A DNA stretch of 64,000 nucleotides from Bacillota bacterium (GTDB lineage: Bacteria > Bacillota > SHA-98 > UBA4971): assembly GCA_012518595.1 (NCBI GenBank), contig JAAYRV010000004.1, positions 52,304 to 116,303 of the forward strand, read 5' to 3'. The notes beneath the pieces are model-generated. The model was given only the letters and a program-made list of their open reading frames with translations. It was not told the DNA's origin and ran no database searches. This document shows, one piece after another, positions 3,028 to 48,607 of the stretch. The translations under genes were made by a program, and so were the position numbers. Position 1 is the stretch's first letter, and each line of letters opens with the position of its first letter.

Positions 3028-4848
3028 ATGCAGAAAAAGAGAACTCATATGGTGGGAGAGCTAGCAGATGAAGCTTTTGTAGGGAAGACAGTTGTTCTTG
3101 CAGGTTGGGTTGCCAGAAGAAGAGACCTTGGTGGTCTTGTATTCATCGATCTTCGGGATCGCTCAGGTATTGTTCAGGTGGTTTTTAATCCTGAAACCTC
3201 TCCTTGCGCCCACCGAGTAGCTGAGAAGCTGGGTTCAGAGGATGTAGTATGCATATCCGGAGTTGTTGTAGAACGCCCACCCGGTGCAGTGAATCCTTCA
3301 ATCCCTACAGGCAAGGTTGATGTGGCAGCTGAGTTCCTGGAGGTGCTGTCCAAATCGAAGACTCCGCCTTTCTATATCACTGAGGATGTTGATGTTGACG
3401 AACTCCTGAGGCTTAAGTATCGATATCTTGACCTTCGAAGACCGGACATGCAGAAGAACATGATTCTTCGGCACCGCTTAACCATAGCAGTAAGGAACTT
3501 CTTAGACTCTCGAGGTTTCATTGAGGTGGAGACGCCAATGTTTATAAGGAGCACCCCGGAGGGCGCTCGCGACTATGTTGTTCCCAGCCGCGTGAATCCG
3601 GGCCGATTTTTTGCACTACCCCAATCGCCCCAGCTTTTCAAGCAGCTCTTAATGGTATCCGGATTTGATAGGTATTTTCAGATTGCGCGGTGCTTTCGAG
3701 ATGAGGACTTGCGAGCTGACAGGCAACCTGAGTTTACGCAAATTGATATTGAAATGTCTTTCATCAATAGAGATGATGTGCTTAACCTCACAGAAGACAT
3801 GATGACTCACTGTATAGAAGAGACTTTGGGGATATCAGTGGCAAAGCCTTTCCTTAGAATGTCATATGCTGACGCTATGGAACGATATGGTTCAGACAAG
3901 CCTGACATACGATTCGGCATGGAGATAAGAGACATAAGCGATGTTGTGAAAAACTGCGGTTTTCGCGTTTTTCAAGGTGCCATTGAAGCCGGCGGTAAGG
4001 TAGCTTGCATAGTGGCGCCTGGTTGTAGTCAGCTGTCCAGACAAGAAATCAAAGAACTCGAGGGAATCGTCAAGAACTTTGGCGCAGGAGGCCTTATGTC
4101 AATAGCGCTTTCTTGCGGGGAAGACGGGAACGTGACTTTCAGCTCTCAACTGACCAAGTTTCTTACAGAAACTGAATTGCAGGAAATCGCAGAAGTTACA
4201 GCAGCAAAAGATGGGGACCTGATTCTGATTGTAGCAGGCCCCGGAAACGTAGTTTTGGAGTCTCTTGGCAGATTGAGATTGCACCTAGGCGCCAAGCTGG
4301 ACCTCATCTCTGAAAATCAACTGGCATTTCTTTGGGTTACTGACTTTCCCTTGTTTGAGTTCAGCCAGGAGGAAGACAGGATAGTCGCTGTGCATCATGC
4401 GTTTACGTCTCCTTTGGAAGAAGATATTCACTTAATGGAGACAGATCCTCTGAGTGTTCGAGCTAACATGTACGATCTCGTTTTGAACGGTGTAGAGCTG
4501 GGCAGCGGAAGCATAAGGATACATAAGCGAGATGTACAGGAGAAAATATTCGGGGTCTTGGGGTTCAGCGAAGAGGAAGCCCAAGAGAAATTCGGCTTCC
4601 TTCTTGAAGCTTTTGAGTACGGCGCACCGCCTCACGGCGGGATTGCCTTGGGCTTTGACAGAATGGTTATGCTGTTGGCAGGGAGAAAGACTATCCGTGA
4701 CGTAATTGCATTCCCGAAAACTCAAAAAGCGGTATGCCCCATGACCGGAGCCCCCGGAGCAATTAGCGAAGAACAACTGACTGAACTGTATATACAGGTA
4801 GTCGACATGGGTAAAATAGGCACAAGCGGTGATACGGAGCTGCCTTGA
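3028..4848 (+). CDS. aspS: Aspartate--tRNA ligase
   Basis: 606 aa. OB-fold N-terminus, class II motifs 'FRDEDLRADRQPEFTQIDIE' and 'GGIALGFDRMVMLL'. Confidence 0.92.
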   Translation: MQKKRTHMVGELADEAFVGKTVVLAGWVARRRDLGGLVFIDLRDRSGIVQVVFNPETSPCAHRVAEKLGSEDVVCISGVVVERPPGAVNPSIPTGKVDVAAEFLEVLSKSKTPPFYITEDVDVDELLRLKYRYLDLRRPDMQKNMILRHRLTIAVRNFLDSRGFIEVETPMFIRSTPEGARDYVVPSRVNPGRFFALPQSPQLFKQLLMVSGFDRYFQIARCFRDEDLRADRQPEFTQIDIEMSFINRDDVLNLTEDMMTHCIEETLGISVAKPFLRMSYADAMERYGSDKPDIRFGMEIRDISDVVKNCGFRVFQGAIEAGGKVACIVAPGCSQLSRQEIKELEGIVKNFGAGGLMSIALSCGEDGNVTFSSQLTKFLTETELQEIAEVTAAKDGDLILIVAGPGNVVLESLGRLRLHLGAKLDLISENQLAFLWVTDFPLFEFSQEEDRIVAVHHAFTSPLEEDIHLMETDPLSVRANMYDLVLNGVELGSGSIRIHKRDVQEKIFGVLGFSEEEAQEKFGFLLEAFEYGAPPHGGIALGFDRMVMLLAGRKTIRDVIAFPKTQKAVCPMTGAPGAISEEQLTELYIQVVDMGKIGTSGDTELP

Positions 4849-32967: not shown

Positions 32968-34383
32968 TTGATACTGTATAGGAACGTTATTACTCATGTT
33001 GATTCATGTCGTGATGGGGGTAGACGAGGTTTGGCGCGGCATCAATCACCGGACAAGACGAAACGCAGTTTCGGAATTCAGCTTACCTGGAAACTCATAG
33101 TATTTGCACTGGTATGTCTTGCTGCTTATTCCCTCACTGTAGGCGGAATACCCAGCAAGATTACGCTTATCGAAGGGAATACCAGGGAGGTTCAATTAGG
33201 CCGGCCTCTTGACCTACGTCGAACCACCTCAGGCTTGGAGCTTCTCCCCTTTGACGGCGGAGTTGAGTTAATTCCCCTTAGTCAAGGTGAAAGCAGACTC
33301 GAGGTGCGTCTCTGGGACCTGATTCCTATAAAACGAATGATTATCAATGTAGTTCCCGATATCCGAGTGCTTCCCGGGGGACAGTCAATAGGCGTTCTAC
33401 TGCCTTCCAGAGGCGTCGTGGTAATAGGACATTACCCTATAGTCGGGTCTGACGGTCGCTCCTACTATCCGGCGCGTGAAGCCGGAATTCAGGCAGGAGA
33501 TATTATTCTCAGAATCAATGGACAGCCTATCAACAGCAAATCACAGATAGAAAGTGCCATAGATAATATAGGTCGAAGCGGCGGGCAGGCCGAAGTCACC
33601 GTTTCGCGTAATTCCAGGAAAATTACGGTTAGGCTGAAGCCGGTTGCCGTCTATGATGAAAGACTGTCTGATGAACCCGGCATGCCTCATGATGAAAGGG
33701 AAACCCACTACAAATTGGGTATATGGGTGCGAGAAAATGCAGCCGGCGTCGGCACTCTGTCTTTCTACCATCCTAATTCCGGCGTTTACTGCGCACTGGG
33801 GCATGTAATCACAGATACATCCACCAATAAGGACATGGATGTGGCCAGCGGTATGATAGTTTCAGCTCAAATCCTCGGTATACACCAAGGGAGCCGCGGC
33901 CAGCCCGGAGAGAAGATCGGTACGTTCAGCGGAGAAACAGACATAATCGGAACAATAGATCGTAATACAAAATTCGGCATCTTCGGTAAGCTTACTGCGA
34001 AACCCATCAATCCCTATTTTACGGAACCGATTCCGGTAGCTCTGTCAGACGAAGTTGTGCCCGGGCCCGCCTATCTCTACACAGTCTTGGAAGAGGACAG
34101 AATAGAGCAGTTTCATGTGGAAATCCAGCGCGTGGCACGTCAAACCAGTCCTCAAATCAAAGGGCTGGTGATTCGTGTTACGGATCCACGCCTGTTGTCA
34201 GTGACCGGCGGCATAGTACAGGGCATGTCAGGCAGCCCCATCATCCAAAATAACAAGCTGGCAGGCGTATTGACCCATGTCTTTGTTTCGGATCAAACAA
34301 GAGGATACGGTGTCCTTGCCGAATGGTTGGTGCAAGATGCAAATTTTCGTCGCAATTATCACGATAGCCTCATTATACAATAG
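32968..34383 (+). CDS. spoIVB: Stage IV sporulation protein B (SpoIVB S55 signalling peptidase); start codon uncertain
   Basis: TM/signal segment, PDZ domain 'GDIILRINGQPINS', and an S55 catalytic region. It lies directly upstream of spo0A, as in Bacillus and Clostridia. Confidence 0.8.
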   Translation: MILYRNVITHVDSCRDGGRRGLARHQSPDKTKRSFGIQLTWKLIVFALVCLAAYSLTVGGIPSKITLIEGNTREVQLGRPLDLRRTTSGLELLPFDGGVELIPLSQGESRLEVRLWDLIPIKRMIINVVPDIRVLPGGQSIGVLLPSRGVVVIGHYPIVGSDGRSYYPAREAGIQAGDIILRINGQPINSKSQIESAIDNIGRSGGQAEVTVSRNSRKITVRLKPVAVYDERLSDEPGMPHDERETHYKLGIWVRENAAGVGTLSFYHPNSGVYCALGHVITDTSTNKDMDVASGMIVSAQILGIHQGSRGQPGEKIGTFSGETDIIGTIDRNTKFGIFGKLTAKPINPYFTEPIPVALSDEVVPGPAYLYTVLEEDRIEQFHVEIQRVARQTSPQIKGLVIRVTDPRLLSVTGGIVQGMSGSPIIQNNKLAGVLTHVFVSDQTRGYGVLAEWLVQDANFRRNYHDSLIIQ

Positions 34384-34425: not shown

Positions 34426-34456
34426 GGGAGGACTTCACCACAAGATGGCGAATTTA
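34426..34456 (+). promoter_or_regulatory. Putative sigma-H type promoter for spo0A, with Spo0A-box-like elements upstream
   Basis: AGGA at 34429-34432, 17 nt, then GAAT at 34450-34453 within 'gcGAATtta'. TGNCGAA-like 0A boxes on the - strand at 34395-34404 (TGTCGTA) and 34413-34422 (TGCCGAA). Confidence 0.3.
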
Positions 34457-34516
34457 TACGGCGTCAGGGATGTCGGTGAGCTCTCTGACTTAAGGAGCAT
34501 TGATTGGGGTGGTATC

Positions 34517-35296
34517 ATGGGACAAGGCACGACACGTGTTCTGATAGTGGATGATAACCATGATTTGTGTGATGTCTTAATGCGATTCCTTAATTCACAG
34601 TCCGACATGTCAGTCGTTGGGGTGGCATATGACGGCATTGAGGCTCTCGGGAAGATATCAGATCTGGAACCTGATGTTGTAGTCCTTGACATTATCATGC
34701 CTCATTTAGACGGTGTAGGAGTGCTGGAGCGCCTTTCTGAACAGCACCTTAACCAACGACCCAGATTCGTGATCCTCACTGCGCTGGGCCAGGAGCGAAT
34801 AATACAGCAACTTACTGAAATGGGAGCTGACTACTACGTTGTAAAACCATTTGATATGCAAACACTGGTAGATAGGATACGCCAGGTGATGTCATCTCCG
34901 CAAATAATCAAGGGAAAGCAGATAGATTATTCGCCTCCCCCGAGAGACCTTCATTCTGAAGTGACAAGGCTTATTCACGACATGGGAATTCCAGCGAATA
35001 TCAGGGGGTACACGTATCTCAGAGAAGCAATAATCTTGGTAATAGGTGAACCTACGCTCTTAAACAGTGTCACAAAGGAGCTATATCCGCGTGTGGCTGA
35101 AACATTTGATACGACCGCAGCAAGAGTCGAACGGGCTATCAGACACGCCATAGAAATTGCTTGGACCAGAGGAAACATTGAGCTCCTAAACGGTTTATTT
35201 GGCTACACGGTCAGCAGTGAGAAGGGGAAACCGACAAACTCCGCCTTCATTGCAAGGATTGCAGACAAGATTCGCCTTGATATCAGAGCAAGCTAG
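34517..35296 (+). CDS. spo0A: Sporulation master regulator Spo0A
   Basis: Receiver domain 'RVLIVDDNHDLC' with the phospho-acceptor Asp in 'VVVLDIIMPHLDG'. The C-terminal Spo0A DNA-binding domain 'GIPANIRGYTYLREAI' matches the Spo0A-specific helix. GGGGTGG RBS before ATG 34517. Confidence 0.9.
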   Translation: MGQGTTRVLIVDDNHDLCDVLMRFLNSQSDMSVVGVAYDGIEALGKISDLEPDVVVLDIIMPHLDGVGVLERLSEQHLNQRPRFVILTALGQERIIQQLTEMGADYYVVKPFDMQTLVDRIRQVMSSPQIIKGKQIDYSPPPRDLHSEVTRLIHDMGIPANIRGYTYLREAIILVIGEPTLLNSVTKELYPRVAETFDTTAARVERAIRHAIEIAWTRGNIELLNGLFGYTVSSEKGKPTNSAFIARIADKIRLDIRAS

Positions 35297-46008: not shown

Positions 46009-46301
46009 GACTTGGGCTCTCCTCCTTGCTCTACGTCCGTTGACCTAAGTATGAGTTCATTAGTTTTCGCTCGTTTTCCGAGGTCTTGGGTGGTCCCGCA
46101 CGGTACGTACACTTTCCGGAACCGGCGATTACTTATGGTGATCTGCTTAGGACGCATATGGGATGCTACTTGCCAATTCTGCCTAAGACGACAAGTTCCT
46201 CTATGCAATTTCAGGGTATATAGGTTCAATGTGGTTTAAAAATCGGCGATAATAGATAGTTAGAAAAAAGAGGATTCAGACTCAGATGGGCGAATTTATA
46301 T

Positions 46302-47702
46302 GTGCGTGTCGATGAGAAGCGAAGGATGTCTAGGAGTGGCGTAGTGGATCAATACAAGAAGATTGTGCTGCCTGGCGGGGCAAAGGTAGTGACTGAAGAG
46401 ATTCCCCATGTACGATCGTGTACAGTCGGGTTATGGTTGAATGCCGGATCACGCTGGGAAAGTCCGAAAGCAAACGGGGTTTCTCACTTCATTGAACATC
46501 TGGTTTTCAAAGGCACTAAAAGTCGTACAGCAAAGAAAATTGCAGAAGAAATAGACGGGGTAGGCGGATACTTGAATGCTGTAACTACCAAGGACTATAC
46601 TTGCTACTATGCTAAAGTGCCTGATAAATACGTAGGACTTGCTATAGATATCATATGCGATATTGTCTGTCGCCCGTTGCTCGAAGAAGGAGATATTGAG
46701 AAAGAAAAAAGCGTCATAGCCGAAGAGATTGCCATGTATGAAGACTCACCGGAAGAAATTGTCCATGATTTGCTTGCCTCTACAGCGTGGGGGCGTTGCG
46801 CTCTTGGGTTGCCGACTCTTGGTTCTCTAAAAACCTTGAAGGATTTCGGAAGGGATAGTATTGTCAAGTACATGTCCGAACACTACGTCTCGGAAAGCAC
46901 AGTTGTGTCAGCTGCGGGGAACATAAGGCACGAGAACGTGGTGGAAGAAATAATCAAGCGGTTAGATCTATCTGACATGCCGATGAAATCTTTTGTGACT
47001 CCCAAGTGGAAACCGGGAGCACAGGCTTTTCGTTCCAAAGCTATAGAACAGGCTCACGTATGCATTGGGTACGAAGCGTTTGGCAGACACCACCCGGACA
47101 GGTTCGGCCTATATATCTTGGATGTCGCAGTTGGAGGCGGGTTAAGCTCCAGACTCTTCCAGAAGCTCAGAGAAGACCGGGGCCTTGTGTACTCGACATA
47201 CTCCTATACTGCGTTGTATGATGATACAGGGGCATTTACATTGTATGCCGGAACCGCCGTAGAAAACGTCAGCCTTGTCAGCGATTTGATTTTTGGAGAG
47301 CTTCATGACATATGTAACCATGGCCTTAAATGGGAAGAATATAACCGTGGCAAAGAGCAACTGAAAAATGCCCTGGCGCTGAATTTGGAGACTACCAATA
47401 GCAGAATGAGCAGGCTTGGAAGGTTAGAACTTGCAGGTGAACCACTCTATACGCCGGATGAGATCAGCAAGCTCATTGATAATGTTACTTACGATGATGT
47501 GAGCCGAATAGCAGTTCAGATCTTGGGGCAAAAGCCACCGGTCGTGGCGGTGGTAGGTCCACGCAAAACTAAATCGTTCCTTATTCGGAGGGAGCTAAAT
47601 GACACAAGACCTCGAGAAGAGACTGGAAGTACTCAGGATAGCCATAGAAGATTTGCGTGGGGAGCTGAACCGAACGATAGCCCAACATCAAGGAAACCTT
47701 AA
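46302..47702 (+). CDS. M16-family zinc peptidase (MlpA/YmxG-like), with an unusual C-terminal tail of about 40 aa
   Basis: Inverzincin motif 'HFIEHLVFKGT' (HxxEH). The real start is probably at ATG 46326. The ORF runs 104 nt into the next gene. Confidence 0.8.
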   Translation: MRVDEKRRMSRSGVVDQYKKIVLPGGAKVVTEEIPHVRSCTVGLWLNAGSRWESPKANGVSHFIEHLVFKGTKSRTAKKIAEEIDGVGGYLNAVTTKDYTCYYAKVPDKYVGLAIDIICDIVCRPLLEEGDIEKEKSVIAEEIAMYEDSPEEIVHDLLASTAWGRCALGLPTLGSLKTLKDFGRDSIVKYMSEHYVSESTVVSAAGNIRHENVVEEIIKRLDLSDMPMKSFVTPKWKPGAQAFRSKAIEQAHVCIGYEAFGRHHPDRFGLYILDVAVGGGLSSRLFQKLREDRGLVYSTYSYTALYDDTGAFTLYAGTAVENVSLVSDLIFGELHDICNHGLKWEEYNRGKEQLKNALALNLETTNSRMSRLGRLELAGEPLYTPDEISKLIDNVTYDDVSRIAVQILGQKPPVVAVVGPRKTKSFLIRRELNDTRPREETGSTQDSHRRFAWGAEPNDSPTSRKP

Positions 47703-47850
47703 TAACCTTGAGACTTATGATATCAGCGAACGCCTTGATGAACTGGTTGCCGAATACCTTCGTCTGACAGAAAGGCTAAATGGCGCATATGAGCGTGGCT
47801 ATTATGTCAAACTAAAGCCAAACCCTACTAACAAGGAGGCGGCGAGATAA
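47599..47850 (+). CDS. Spo0E-like sporulation regulatory aspartyl-phosphate phosphatase
   Basis: 83-aa helical protein with 'ISERLDELVAEYLRL', resembling the Spo0E 'SQxLDxLIxxY' signature. Strong GGAGGGAG RBS. Confidence 0.55.
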   Translation: MTQDLEKRLEVLRIAIEDLRGELNRTIAQHQGNLNNLETYDISERLDELVAEYLRLTERLNGAYERGYYVKLKPNPTNKEAAR

Positions 47851-48339
47851 ATGGCAAGCATCATAGGCACATTTAGCAAGCGTGATGAGGCGGAGAGAGC
47901 TATTCATGAGTTAAAGAGAGAAGGATTCGGCGATGACAAAGTATCCATAGTTGCCAAAGAAGATAGAGGGCGTGGAGGAGATCGCGGTGAAGGCGGACTG
48001 AAAATGGGTCGCGGCACAGATGTTTCCGGTGGTACAGTCACCGGAGGCGCAGTCGGAGGCACGGCCGGAGTCCTTGCAGGATTGGGGGCTCTTGCGATTC
48101 CCGGAATTGGTCCAATTGTCGCTATCGGACCCATAGCAGCCGGACTTACCGGGGCGGTAGCAGGGGGACTTGTAGGTAGCCTTGTGGATTTAGGGATTCC
48201 GGAAGATCGTAGCAAGTTTTATGAGAGCAAAGTTAAAGAGGGAAAGGTCCTGGCTGTAGTAAAAGCCGATGACAATGAGGTGAATAACGTCAGAGAGGTA
48301 TACAGCAAGTTCGGCGCCTCTGACATAGAGATTCACTAA
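47851..48339 (+). CDS. YflT/GSP17M-like general-stress protein with a central glycine-zipper segment
   Basis: 'IGTFSKRDEAERAIHELKREGFGDDKVSIVAKE' resembles the YflT N-domain. The central 'GGAVGGTAGVLAGLGALAIPGIGPIVAIGPIAAGLTGAVAGGLVG' is glycine-zipper-like. The ATG directly follows the Spo0E-like stop. Confidence 0.6.
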   Translation: MASIIGTFSKRDEAERAIHELKREGFGDDKVSIVAKEDRGRGGDRGEGGLKMGRGTDVSGGTVTGGAVGGTAGVLAGLGALAIPGIGPIVAIGPIAAGLTGAVAGGLVGSLVDLGIPEDRSKFYESKVKEGKVLAVVKADDNEVNNVREVYSKFGASDIEIH

Positions 48340-48607
48340 CTTTAGAGAATCAGGTGGAATTTCCGTACACATAATGTAGTATCAATGGATAAACCGCTGT
48401 GGCATGGTGTCCGGATAGTGCCTGTCTGCAGCGGTTCTTGCATTATTCCAAGGATAGTTGCATGCTCGGCTCCAAGAAGGCTCCAATGCCGGTAAGTAAC
48501 TGGATTTACCGCTGACACGGTTGCGTTACCGGAGGCGAAAGGAATGCAAAACCGGAAGGATTAAAGAAGCATGGCAAGGATAAGCCTACTCAGGGGGTTA
48601 GGTATAA

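What the first reader, a model, noticed from the sequence alone, without database searches (positions are those of the whole stretch)
47599..48339. Translationally coupled Spo0E-like phosphatase and YflT/GSP17M-like glycine-zipper protein inserted between the M16 peptidase and the dapB-spoVF block
The Spo0E-like stop TAA is immediately followed by the ATG of a YflT-like general-stress protein, which has a central glycine-zipper segment (GxxxG repeats, probably membrane-inserting). I am not aware of a described functional pairing of a Spo0A-P phosphatase homologue with a YflT-like protein. Its location between sporulation genes, where Bacillus has ymxH, suggests a lineage-specific control point on the phosphorelay.
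Basis: partly seen in the sequence, partly recalled or inferred. Interest (0 to 1): 0.5.

Follow-up and report, generated by a model that had tools for sequence, protein, structure and literature searches.

The report
Spo0E-like phosphatase paired with membrane protein
A small gene of the family that switches off the sporulation master regulator is welded, stop codon to start codon, to a gene for a membrane-anchored stress-type protein; the pair is conserved and sometimes fused in related uncultured bacteria, which suggests an undescribed membrane-bound brake on sporulation.

Summary
ORF 47599-47850 (83 aa) passes Pfam's Spo0E-like threshold and keeps the family's SxxxD motif as SERLD, with an invariant Asp47. 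Its TAA directly abuts the ATG of ORF 47851-48339 (162 aa). That second protein has a YflT-type N-terminus and a 55-residue uncharged segment that is 31% glycine. Its two cytoplasmic halves are predicted to form one ferredoxin-like domain.

The pairing is not chance:
- This Spo0E-like subfamily is small (48 clusters), and every member I could evaluate has a YflT-like gene just downstream.
- One sister lineage has the two ORFs fused (263-268 aa), seen in several independent assemblies.
- The pair persists despite changes in flanking genes.

The YflT-like gene is not a lineage-specific insertion. It sits before dapB/spoVF in 25 of 80 species examined, and its upstream neighbour is often ymxH. 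Only the Spo0E-like gene is lineage-restricted, and it occupies the ymxH position.

A canonical spo0A lies 12 kb upstream in the window.

My best reading is a membrane-anchored or membrane-regulated Spo0A~P phosphatase module. The functional link is well supported. The mechanism is inferred and no experiment bears on it. I found no paper describing the pairing.

The parts
46302..47702 (+). M16 peptidase gene (MlpA/YmxG-like). It is the upstream gene and probably co-transcribed. Its last 104 nt overlap the Spo0E-like ORF in another frame.
   Evidence: Pfam Peptidase_M16 140 bits and M16_C 107 bits. In the overlap, pN/pS is 0.8-1.6 in the M16 frame and 0.26-0.43 in the Spo0E frame. The gene is deleted in relatives L001-4/L008, L007 and L011, which keep the pair.
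47587..47594 (+). Shine-Dalgarno sequence GGAGGGAG of the Spo0E-like gene
   Evidence: Read from the sequence. Conserved in L006-L009 and L011.
47599..47850 (+). Spo0E-family small protein, 83 aa, predicted two-helix hairpin
   Evidence: PF09388 36.2 bits against cut-off 23. Subfamily profile against PDB: best match 2bzb_A, E 1.2e-5. The AF2 model of the fused homologue has helices 2-29 and 36-61. pN/pS 0.22-0.33.
47725..47739 (+). SERLD motif (S43-D47), the counterpart of the Spo0E signature SxxxD/SQELD with its catalytic Asp
   Evidence: Across 24 subfamily members D47 is invariant, and S43, L46 and L49 are at least 90% conserved. The motif definition is from PMC11115286.
47833..47839 (+). 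Shine-Dalgarno sequence AAGGAGG of the YflT-like gene, inside the Spo0E-like coding sequence
   Evidence: An AGGAGG lies 8-12 nt before the YflT-like start in all 16 sequences inspected, the window and 15 loci, including the fusions.
47848..47853 (+). TAA|ATG junction, in the same frame. A single TAA-to-CAA change gives the fusion seen in relatives.
   Evidence: The same 0-nt junction is in L001-4, L008, L009, L011, L087, L088 and L090-93. Fusions are P0022-24 and P0029 and loci L005, L006, L010 and L095-97.
47851..48339 (+). YflT/DUF1269-like protein, 162 aa: a ferredoxin-like cytoplasmic domain split by a glycine-zipper hairpin
48022..48186 (+). Glycine-zipper hydrophobic segment (residues 58-112), a probable membrane hairpin
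   Evidence: 55 residues with none charged, 31% Gly, hydropathy 1.0-1.8. It is the most conserved stretch of the family (GALAIPGIGPIVAAGPIAAGLTGAV). AF2 pLDDT is below 50 across most of it (block means 35-55).
48392..48436 (+). Conserved hairpin followed by a U-rich tract, 53 nt after the YflT-like stop. It is terminator-like and is the probable 3' end of the unit.
   Evidence: Minimum free energy -24.3 kcal/mol, z -1.68. The 11-bp stem is kept in 5 of 6 relatives with only one-sided changes and no compensatory change. Weak evidence.
34445..35296 (+). spo0A, the presumptive substrate of the Spo0E-like protein. It is context, not part of the operon.
   Evidence: Pfam Response_reg 89.6 bits and Spo0A_C 141.2 bits. 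LDIIMPHLDG acceptor signature.

Best explanation
This is a conserved two-gene module. Gene 1 encodes a cytoplasmic two-helix protein of the Spo0E family of aspartyl-phosphate phosphatases, with the catalytic SxxxD motif intact. Gene 2 encodes a protein held at the cytoplasmic membrane by a glycine-zipper hairpin; its N- and C-terminal halves meet on the cytoplasmic side to form one ferredoxin-like (YflT/DUF1269-type) domain. The two are made together from one mRNA, through the TAA|ATG junction and the internal SD, and in a sister lineage they are one polypeptide. I infer that they work as a complex at the membrane. In that reading the YflT-like partner anchors, sequesters or gates the phosphatase, which removes the phosphate from Spo0A~P (Spo0A is encoded 12 kb upstream) and so brakes or resets sporulation. 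Shown here: the gene structures, the family signatures, the conservation, the one-sided co-occurrence and the fusion. Inferred: physical contact, membrane insertion, phosphatase activity, Spo0A as target, and the direction of regulation.
For: Family membership: Pfam scores above cut-off, best PDB match the B. anthracis Spo0E-like structure 2bzb, invariant Asp47, helix hairpin in the AF2 model. Linkage from the YflT side: 17 of 80 species-level loci that carry the YflT-like gene have this Spo0E-like gene upstream on the same strand, and it is found nowhere else in those loci. Linkage from the Spo0E side: a metagenome scan seeded only on the Spo0E-like motif gave 24 strong subfamily members, and all 24 have a YflT-like gene downstream. 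Eight weak, generic Spo0E-like hits have none. Four further context look-ups were 4 of 4 positive. Fusions of 263-268 aa occur in independent assemblies. The pair survives deletion of M16, loss of dapB-spoVF (class C loci) and a move to unrelated flanks (L124). Spo0A is present in the window. In B. subtilis spo0E has a sigma-B promoter (Reder et al. 2012, as cited in PMC9912610), and YflT is SigB-dependent in B. cereus in that paper; from memory it is also sigma-B-controlled in B. subtilis. That gives a precedent for co-regulating these two families.
Against: There is no direct evidence of contact; the AF2 output gave no inter-domain confidence. YflT-like genes are far more common than this Spo0E-like subfamily (3972 against 48 clusters), and most lack it, so the dependence is one-sided. 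In class C loci an opposite-strand gene separates the two, so they are not co-transcribed there. My subfamily HMM was trained on ORFs chosen next to YflT-like genes, which makes the strong/weak split partly circular. Two members (L026, L053) do not reach any Pfam Spo0E score. C. difficile Spo0E also acts through non-Spo0A partners (PMC11115286). The upstream genes (M16, dut) are not known sporulation-initiation genes, so timing of expression is unknown.
Confidence: 0.5

Rival explanations
1. The two genes are only co-regulated neighbours in an old, conserved gene block (nfo/pnp ... rnj). They are made together but act separately: a free cytoplasmic Spo0A~P phosphatase and an unrelated membrane stress or sporulation protein.
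For: All pnp-rnj-region loci group in one part of the YflT-like tree, so much of the co-occurrence could be descent. The YflT-like gene occurs without the Spo0E-like gene in 63 of 80 loci, often with ymxH instead. In class C loci the genes are separated by a divergent gene.
Against: Fusion into one polypeptide in a sister lineage. The 0-nt junction is kept across lineages. The pair is retained when flanks are deleted or replaced. Every evaluable member of the Spo0E-like subfamily has the partner.
Confidence: 0.25
2. The Spo0E-like protein keeps the fold but does not act on Spo0A. It either targets another receiver-domain protein or serves as a cytoplasmic adaptor or regulator of the YflT-like protein. 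On this reading ymxH fills the same adaptor role in other lineages.
For: ymxH and the Spo0E-like gene are mutually exclusive at the same position directly upstream of the YflT-like gene. Spo0E-like proteins occur in non-sporulating organisms and have non-Spo0A partners in C. difficile (PMC11115286). The divergent members L026 and L053 fall below Pfam detection.
Against: Asp47 of the SxxxD motif is invariant and S43 and L46 are at least 90% conserved across about 50% YflT-like divergence, which argues that the catalytic site is maintained. The lineage has Spo0A, SpoIVB, DpaAB and SleB-like genes in the same window.
Confidence: 0.2
3. One or both ORFs are chance ORFs or assembly artefacts.
For: None found. 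The M16 tail overlapping the first 104 nt could have suggested a frame error.
Against: pN/pS is well below 1 in both ORFs, and in the overlap only the Spo0E frame is constrained. Strong SDs are present. An identical protein is seen on 14 contigs from independent sources, and homologues occur in many assemblies.
Confidence: 0.02

Closest known systems
Spo0E / YisI / YnzD aspartyl-phosphate phosphatases of Bacillus (Pfam PF09388; solved B. anthracis Spo0E-like structure 2BZB) and C. difficile Spo0E
   Same: Size (83 aa), predicted antiparallel two-helix hairpin, SxxxD motif with a conserved Asp in helix 2 (SERLD against SQELD), Pfam score above threshold, and a host that encodes Spo0A.
   Different: The known members are free-standing small proteins with no dedicated membrane partner. 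This subfamily is always next to, translationally coupled to, or fused with a YflT-like membrane protein. It also carries a conserved C-terminal tail (YYVKLKPNP) absent from the Pfam core. Its activity is untested.
B. subtilis YflT (general stress protein 17M, PF11181) and the DUF1269 membrane proteins (PF06897)
   Same: The N-terminal beta-alpha-beta unit matches the YflT model. The C-terminal part resembles DUF1269. NCBI's annotation pipeline labels homologues 'general stress protein'.
   Different: Only 36 of 99 YflT model positions match, and DUF1269 is below threshold. The domain is split by an insert of about 70 residues that contains a glycine-zipper hydrophobic hairpin. The genomic home is the sporulation-rich pnp-rnj block next to dapB/spoVF, not a sigma-B stress locus. 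From memory, B. subtilis YflT is soluble and is not near spo0E, yisI or ynzD.
ymxH (YlmC/YmxH PRC-barrel sporulation protein) between mlpA and spoVFA in B. subtilis
   Same: It occupies the same genomic slot. In 17 other species ymxH lies directly upstream of the YflT-like gene and before dapB/spoVF.
   Different: The fold is unrelated (PRC barrel against helix hairpin). There is no ymxH in the 64-kb window. The resemblance is one of position only.
PII / CutA ferredoxin-like trimeric proteins
   Different: No sequence similarity (9-16% identity), no PII signature, and Foldseek found nothing significant. This is a generic fold resemblance, not membership.

Membership tests
Spo0E-like (PF09388) | Pfam HMM score above the gathering threshold | tested here: met
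   36.2 bits against 23, E 6e-9, model positions 3-41 of 42. L033 (25.4) and L085 (35.2) also pass. L013 is below threshold (17.9). L026 and L053 give no hit.
Spo0E-like (PF09388) | Signature SxxxD motif (SQELD in B. subtilis) with the functionally critical Asp | tested here: met
   SERLD at residues 43-47. D47 is invariant, and S43 and L46 are at least 90% conserved in 24 subfamily sequences. Motif definition from PMC11115286.
Spo0E-like (PF09388) | Small protein (40-100 aa) built of two antiparallel helices | tested here: met
   83 aa. AF2 of the fused homologue P0023 gives helices 2-29 and 36-61 at block-mean pLDDT 63-79, which is moderate confidence. The profile matches solved Spo0E-like 2bzb_A over both helices, E 1.2e-5.
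Spo0E-like (PF09388) | Dephosphorylates Spo0A~P and represses sporulation | not testable with these tools
   I could only show that the substrate gene is present: spo0A at 34445-35296.
YflT / GSP17M (PF11181) | Pfam HMM score above the gathering threshold over the domain | tested here: inconclusive
   35.3 bits against 26.2, but only residues 4-39 align, to model positions 2-37 of 99. The rest of the model is not matched.
YflT / GSP17M (PF11181) | Heat- or sigma-B-induced general stress protein | not testable with these tools
   No expression data. The genomic context is sporulation and lysine/DPA genes, not a sigma-B cluster.
DUF1269 (PF06897) | Pfam HMM score above the gathering threshold | tested here: not met
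   22.3 bits against 26.9, residues 89-156. Some homologues carry a precomputed PF06897 hit.
Glycine-zipper membrane proteins (SlyB / Rick_17kDa_Anti type) | Match to a glycine-zipper HMM or to a solved glycine-zipper protein | tested here: not met
   No glycine-zipper Pfam family at E up to 1. SlyB 7ojf scores only E 9.5. The GxxxG-rich uncharged 55-residue segment is present, so the resemblance is in motif only.
YlmC/YmxH (PRC barrel) | PRC-barrel domain | tested here: not met
   Neither ORF matches PRC. The genuine ymxH of other loci scores 45 bits. There is no ymxH homologue in the window.
PII / CutA | Fold plus family sequence signature | tested here: inconclusive

The most novel reading that the evidence does not exclude
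The YflT-like glycine-zipper protein is the membrane receptor or regulator of a dedicated Spo0E-family phosphatase. The complex (a single chain in the fusion lineage) would couple a membrane or envelope-stress state to Spo0A~P levels. That would give the first molecular function for the YflT/GSP17M/DUF1269 group of 'general stress proteins'. It would also turn the soft sigma-B link between stress and spo0E in Bacillus into a hard-wired protein complex. The mutually exclusive ymxH would then be an alternative partner of the same membrane protein next to the dipicolinate genes.
Probability: 0.25. Interest if true: 0.65.

Novelty: new variant of a known kind. Interest (0 to 1): 0.45.

Why it matters
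Spo0E-type phosphatases are the last brake on the decision to sporulate, yet how their activity is controlled at the protein level is largely unknown. C. difficile Spo0E was recently shown to have additional partners. A subfamily that is always coupled to, and sometimes fused with, a membrane protein points to control by location or by a membrane signal. It also gives a concrete, testable partner for the YflT/DUF1269 'general stress proteins', whose function is unknown. The carriers are uncultured Bacillota common in anaerobic digesters, where sporulation affects persistence. Separately, the conserved YflT-like gene next to dapB/spoVF, with ymxH or Spo0E-like upstream, is an unlisted candidate sporulation-associated gene across many lineages.

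Tried and rejected
- Rfam at gathering thresholds found nothing, either in window 40-56 kb or in the seven class C loci. There is no riboswitch or known RNA in the intergenic regions.
- The promoter/terminator scan of 46-49 kb gave 3 promoter-like sites against 3.8 expected and no terminator, so it is uninformative. It missed the long-loop hairpin at 48392-48436.
- Perfect Spo0A boxes (TGTCGAA): 6 in the window against 7.9 expected, and none near the pair. I dropped this line.
- I looked by eye for sporulation sigma-factor promoters in the conserved region upstream of M16 and could not assign one.
- Foldseek of the fusion model against PDB gave nothing with E below 0.3.
- PDB sequence search with the YflT-like profile returned only spurious de novo TIM-barrel repeats.
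- I tried to put Spo0E-like singletons into the fusion alignment for AF2, but MAFFT misaligned them twice. The fusion was therefore modelled with only four sequences covering its N-terminus.
- Model coordinates and PAE were not available, so inter-domain contact could not be judged.
I repeated it with A7.
- Literature searches for Spo0E with YflT, DUF1269 with sporulation, and ymxH/spoVF/dapB found no description of the pair.
- A frameshift or assembly error at the M16/Spo0E-like overlap is rejected, because the same 104-nt overlap occurs in L006, L009 and L010 and only the Spo0E frame is constrained.
Full report
**Observation.** The TAA at 47848-47850 is followed at once by the ATG at 47851. 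Each ORF has a strong Shine-Dalgarno sequence. GGAGGGAG (47587-47594) precedes the first. AAGGAGG (47833-47839) precedes the second and lies inside the first ORF. Against relatives 70-90% identical in protein, pN/pS is 0.22-0.33 for the first ORF and 0.08-0.12 for the second, so both are real, constrained genes.

The upstream M16 peptidase ORF (46302-47702) reads 104 nt into the first ORF. In that overlap only the Spo0E-like frame is constrained (pN/pS 0.26-0.43, against 0.8-1.6 in the M16 frame). The M16 tail is therefore a passenger and not a sign of a frame error.

**What the two proteins are: the Spo0E-like protein.**
- It passes Pfam's SpoOE-like model (36.2 bits, cut-off 23).
- A profile of 24 subfamily members finds the solved B. 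anthracis Spo0E-like protein 2bzb as its best PDB match. The match has E 1.2e-5, spans both helices, and aligns the motifs.
- The family signature SxxxD (SQELD in B. subtilis; critical Asp; PMC11115286) is present as SERLD. D47 is invariant and S43 and L46 are at least 90% conserved.
- The AF2 model of a fused homologue shows helices 2-29 and 36-61.

**What the two proteins are: the YflT-like protein.**
- It passes the YflT model only over its first 36 residues. It matches DUF1269 below threshold over residues 89-156.
- Between those parts lie a charged, Gly-rich linker and a 55-residue segment with no charged residue and 31% glycine. This segment is the most conserved part of the family.
- AF2 folds residues 2-36 and 118-161 into one beta-alpha-beta / alpha-beta-alpha-beta unit (block-mean pLDDT 73-84) and leaves the glycine zipper unmodelled.
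- In short, the protein is a cytoplasmic ferredoxin-like domain split by a probable membrane hairpin. It is related to YflT and DUF1269 but is not a clean member of either.

**Is the pairing more than chance? From the YflT side.** A scan of one genome per species returned 80 loci. In 17 of them a homologue of the Spo0E-like gene lies upstream on the same strand, and it occurs nowhere else in those loci. The 17 fall into three arrangements:
- five loci abutting or fused (L007-L011);
- five with a 66-85 nt gap, preceded by dut (L026, L033, L053, L054, L085);
- seven with a gap of about 460-670 nt that holds a small membrane-protein gene on the other strand, between nfo and rnj (class C).

**Is the pairing more than chance? 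From the Spo0E side.** A metagenome scan seeded only on the Spo0E-like motif returned 33 loci.
- The 24 that score strongly with the subfamily model all have a YflT-like gene just downstream.
- One further strong hit has no flank to judge.
- Eight weak, generic Spo0E-like hits have no YflT-like gene.
- A profile search of 5.8 billion proteins found only 48 clusters of this subfamily. Four further context look-ups were all positive.
- One of those, L124, keeps the trio of Spo0E-like gene, small membrane gene and YflT-like gene between antiporter and TetR genes, outside the usual block.
- Caveat: my subfamily model was trained on ORFs found next to YflT-like genes, so the strong/weak split is partly circular. 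The seeds did not use YflT information.

**Fusion.** In one sister lineage the stop codon is replaced by Gln and the two ORFs form a single 263-268 aa protein (P0022-24, P0029). This is seen in independent assemblies (L005, L006, L010, L095-97). In the two fusion loci read in register (L010, L095), the internal SD and a GTG at the old start are retained, so both a fused and a free product are possible. More distant relatives have separate genes, so fusion is the derived state.

**Context.**
- The window carries the Firmicute block nfo - helicase - SleB-like hydrolase - two polysaccharide deacetylases - GH18 - M16 - [pair] - dapB - dpaA - dpaB - asd - aspartokinase - dapA - RNase J.
- The YflT-like gene is not a local insertion. 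In 25 of the 80 species loci it is followed by dapB or dpaA.
- In 17 loci its upstream neighbour is a PRC-barrel ymxH gene (45 bits). ymxH and the Spo0E-like gene never occur together, and the window has no ymxH.
- In a rough neighbour-joining tree of the YflT-like proteins, Spo0E-associated and ymxH-associated branches are interleaved. The tree has no support values.
- M16 has been deleted in several close relatives that keep the pair, leaving a 50-64 aa remnant ORF.
- A conserved hairpin followed by U residues (48392-48436) lies 53 nt after the YflT-like stop and may end the transcription unit. This is weak evidence because no compensatory changes are seen.
- The window also encodes SpoIVB (32968-34383) and a canonical Spo0A (34445-35296, with the LDIIMPHLDG acceptor signature). 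The expected substrate of a Spo0E-type phosphatase is therefore present.

**Mechanism.** The functional link between the two genes is well supported; I put it at about 0.75-0.8. The specific mechanism is inferred. On that reading, a Spo0E-family phosphatase is held or gated at the membrane by the YflT-like protein and acts on Spo0A~P. I put that at about 0.35-0.4.

There are two main rivals. The first is co-regulation without contact. It is favoured by the one-sided dependence (3972 YflT-like clusters against 48) and by the divergent arrangement in class C. The second is a non-Spo0A role for the Spo0E-like protein, for instance as an adaptor interchangeable with ymxH. The invariant catalytic Asp argues against loss of the active site.

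As a precedent, B. subtilis spo0E has a sigma-B promoter (Reder et al. 2012, as cited in PMC9912610), and YflT is SigB-dependent in B. cereus in that paper; from memory it is also sigma-B-controlled in B. subtilis. Stress-linked co-expression of these two families is therefore known, though not as neighbours.

**Novelty.** Automated pipelines already label these proteins 'Spo0E family' and 'general stress protein'. I found no paper describing the pairing, the fusion, or the conserved YflT-like gene next to spoVF. I classify it as a new variant of a known kind: a Spo0E-family phosphatase with a dedicated, sometimes fused, membrane partner. Interest is moderate. It is a clean, testable lead in uncultured organisms, with no experimental data so far.

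Noticed in passing
window 34445-35296 (and 32968-34383): A canonical spo0A (receiver domain plus Spo0A_C, LDIIMPHLDG acceptor signature) preceded by spoIVB lies 12.3 kb upstream of the Spo0E-like gene. The presumptive substrate is in the same window.
   Followed up: partly
window 47599-47702; L008 3658-3852; L011 3661-3813: The M16 peptidase ORF overlaps the Spo0E-like ORF by 104 nt, with an unconstrained C-terminal tail. In several close relatives the M16 gene is internally deleted, leaving a 50-64 aa remnant that joins its first 9 codons to that tail.
   Followed up: yes
window 48392-48436: A conserved 11-bp-stem hairpin followed by a U-rich tract lies after the YflT-like stop, with a conserved block (AGGAATT-GAAACCGGAAGGATAAAT) before dapB. 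It is terminator-like, shows no compensatory covariation, and was missed by the terminator scan.
   Followed up: partly
L015, L023, L024, L030, L034, L035, L039, L041, L046, L049, L056, L057, L059, L064, L071, L072, L083 (about 3630-3970 in most): In 17 other species a PRC-barrel ymxH gene sits directly upstream of the YflT-like gene, mostly before dapB/dpaA, and never together with the Spo0E-like gene. ymxH plus the YflT-like gene looks like an unreported conserved pair next to the dipicolinate synthase genes.
   Followed up: partly
L013 3550-3864 (-), L016 3545-3859 (-), L122 3345-3659 (-), L124 3380-3703 (-), L071 3270-3653 (+): A conserved 104-127 aa membrane protein with no Pfam family on record in the gene tables lies between the Spo0E-like and YflT-like genes in class C loci, on the opposite strand. 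It travels with them to an unrelated flank in L124. It may be a third component and is absent from the window.
   Followed up: partly
window 46140-46300: The region upstream of M16 has several blocks that are nearly invariant among relatives, including those that lost M16 (e.g. GGTTGAATGTGG, AAGAGGATTC, GATAGGCGAATT). It is a probable promoter or leader for the unit. I could not assign a sigma factor.
   Followed up: partly
window 47776-47823 (residues 60-75 of the 83-aa protein): The Spo0E-like proteins of the window's clade share a conserved C-terminal tail, AYE..YYVKLKPNP, outside the Pfam core. In the fusion lineage about 21 extra residues are inserted just before it. It may be the part that contacts the partner.
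   Followed up: no
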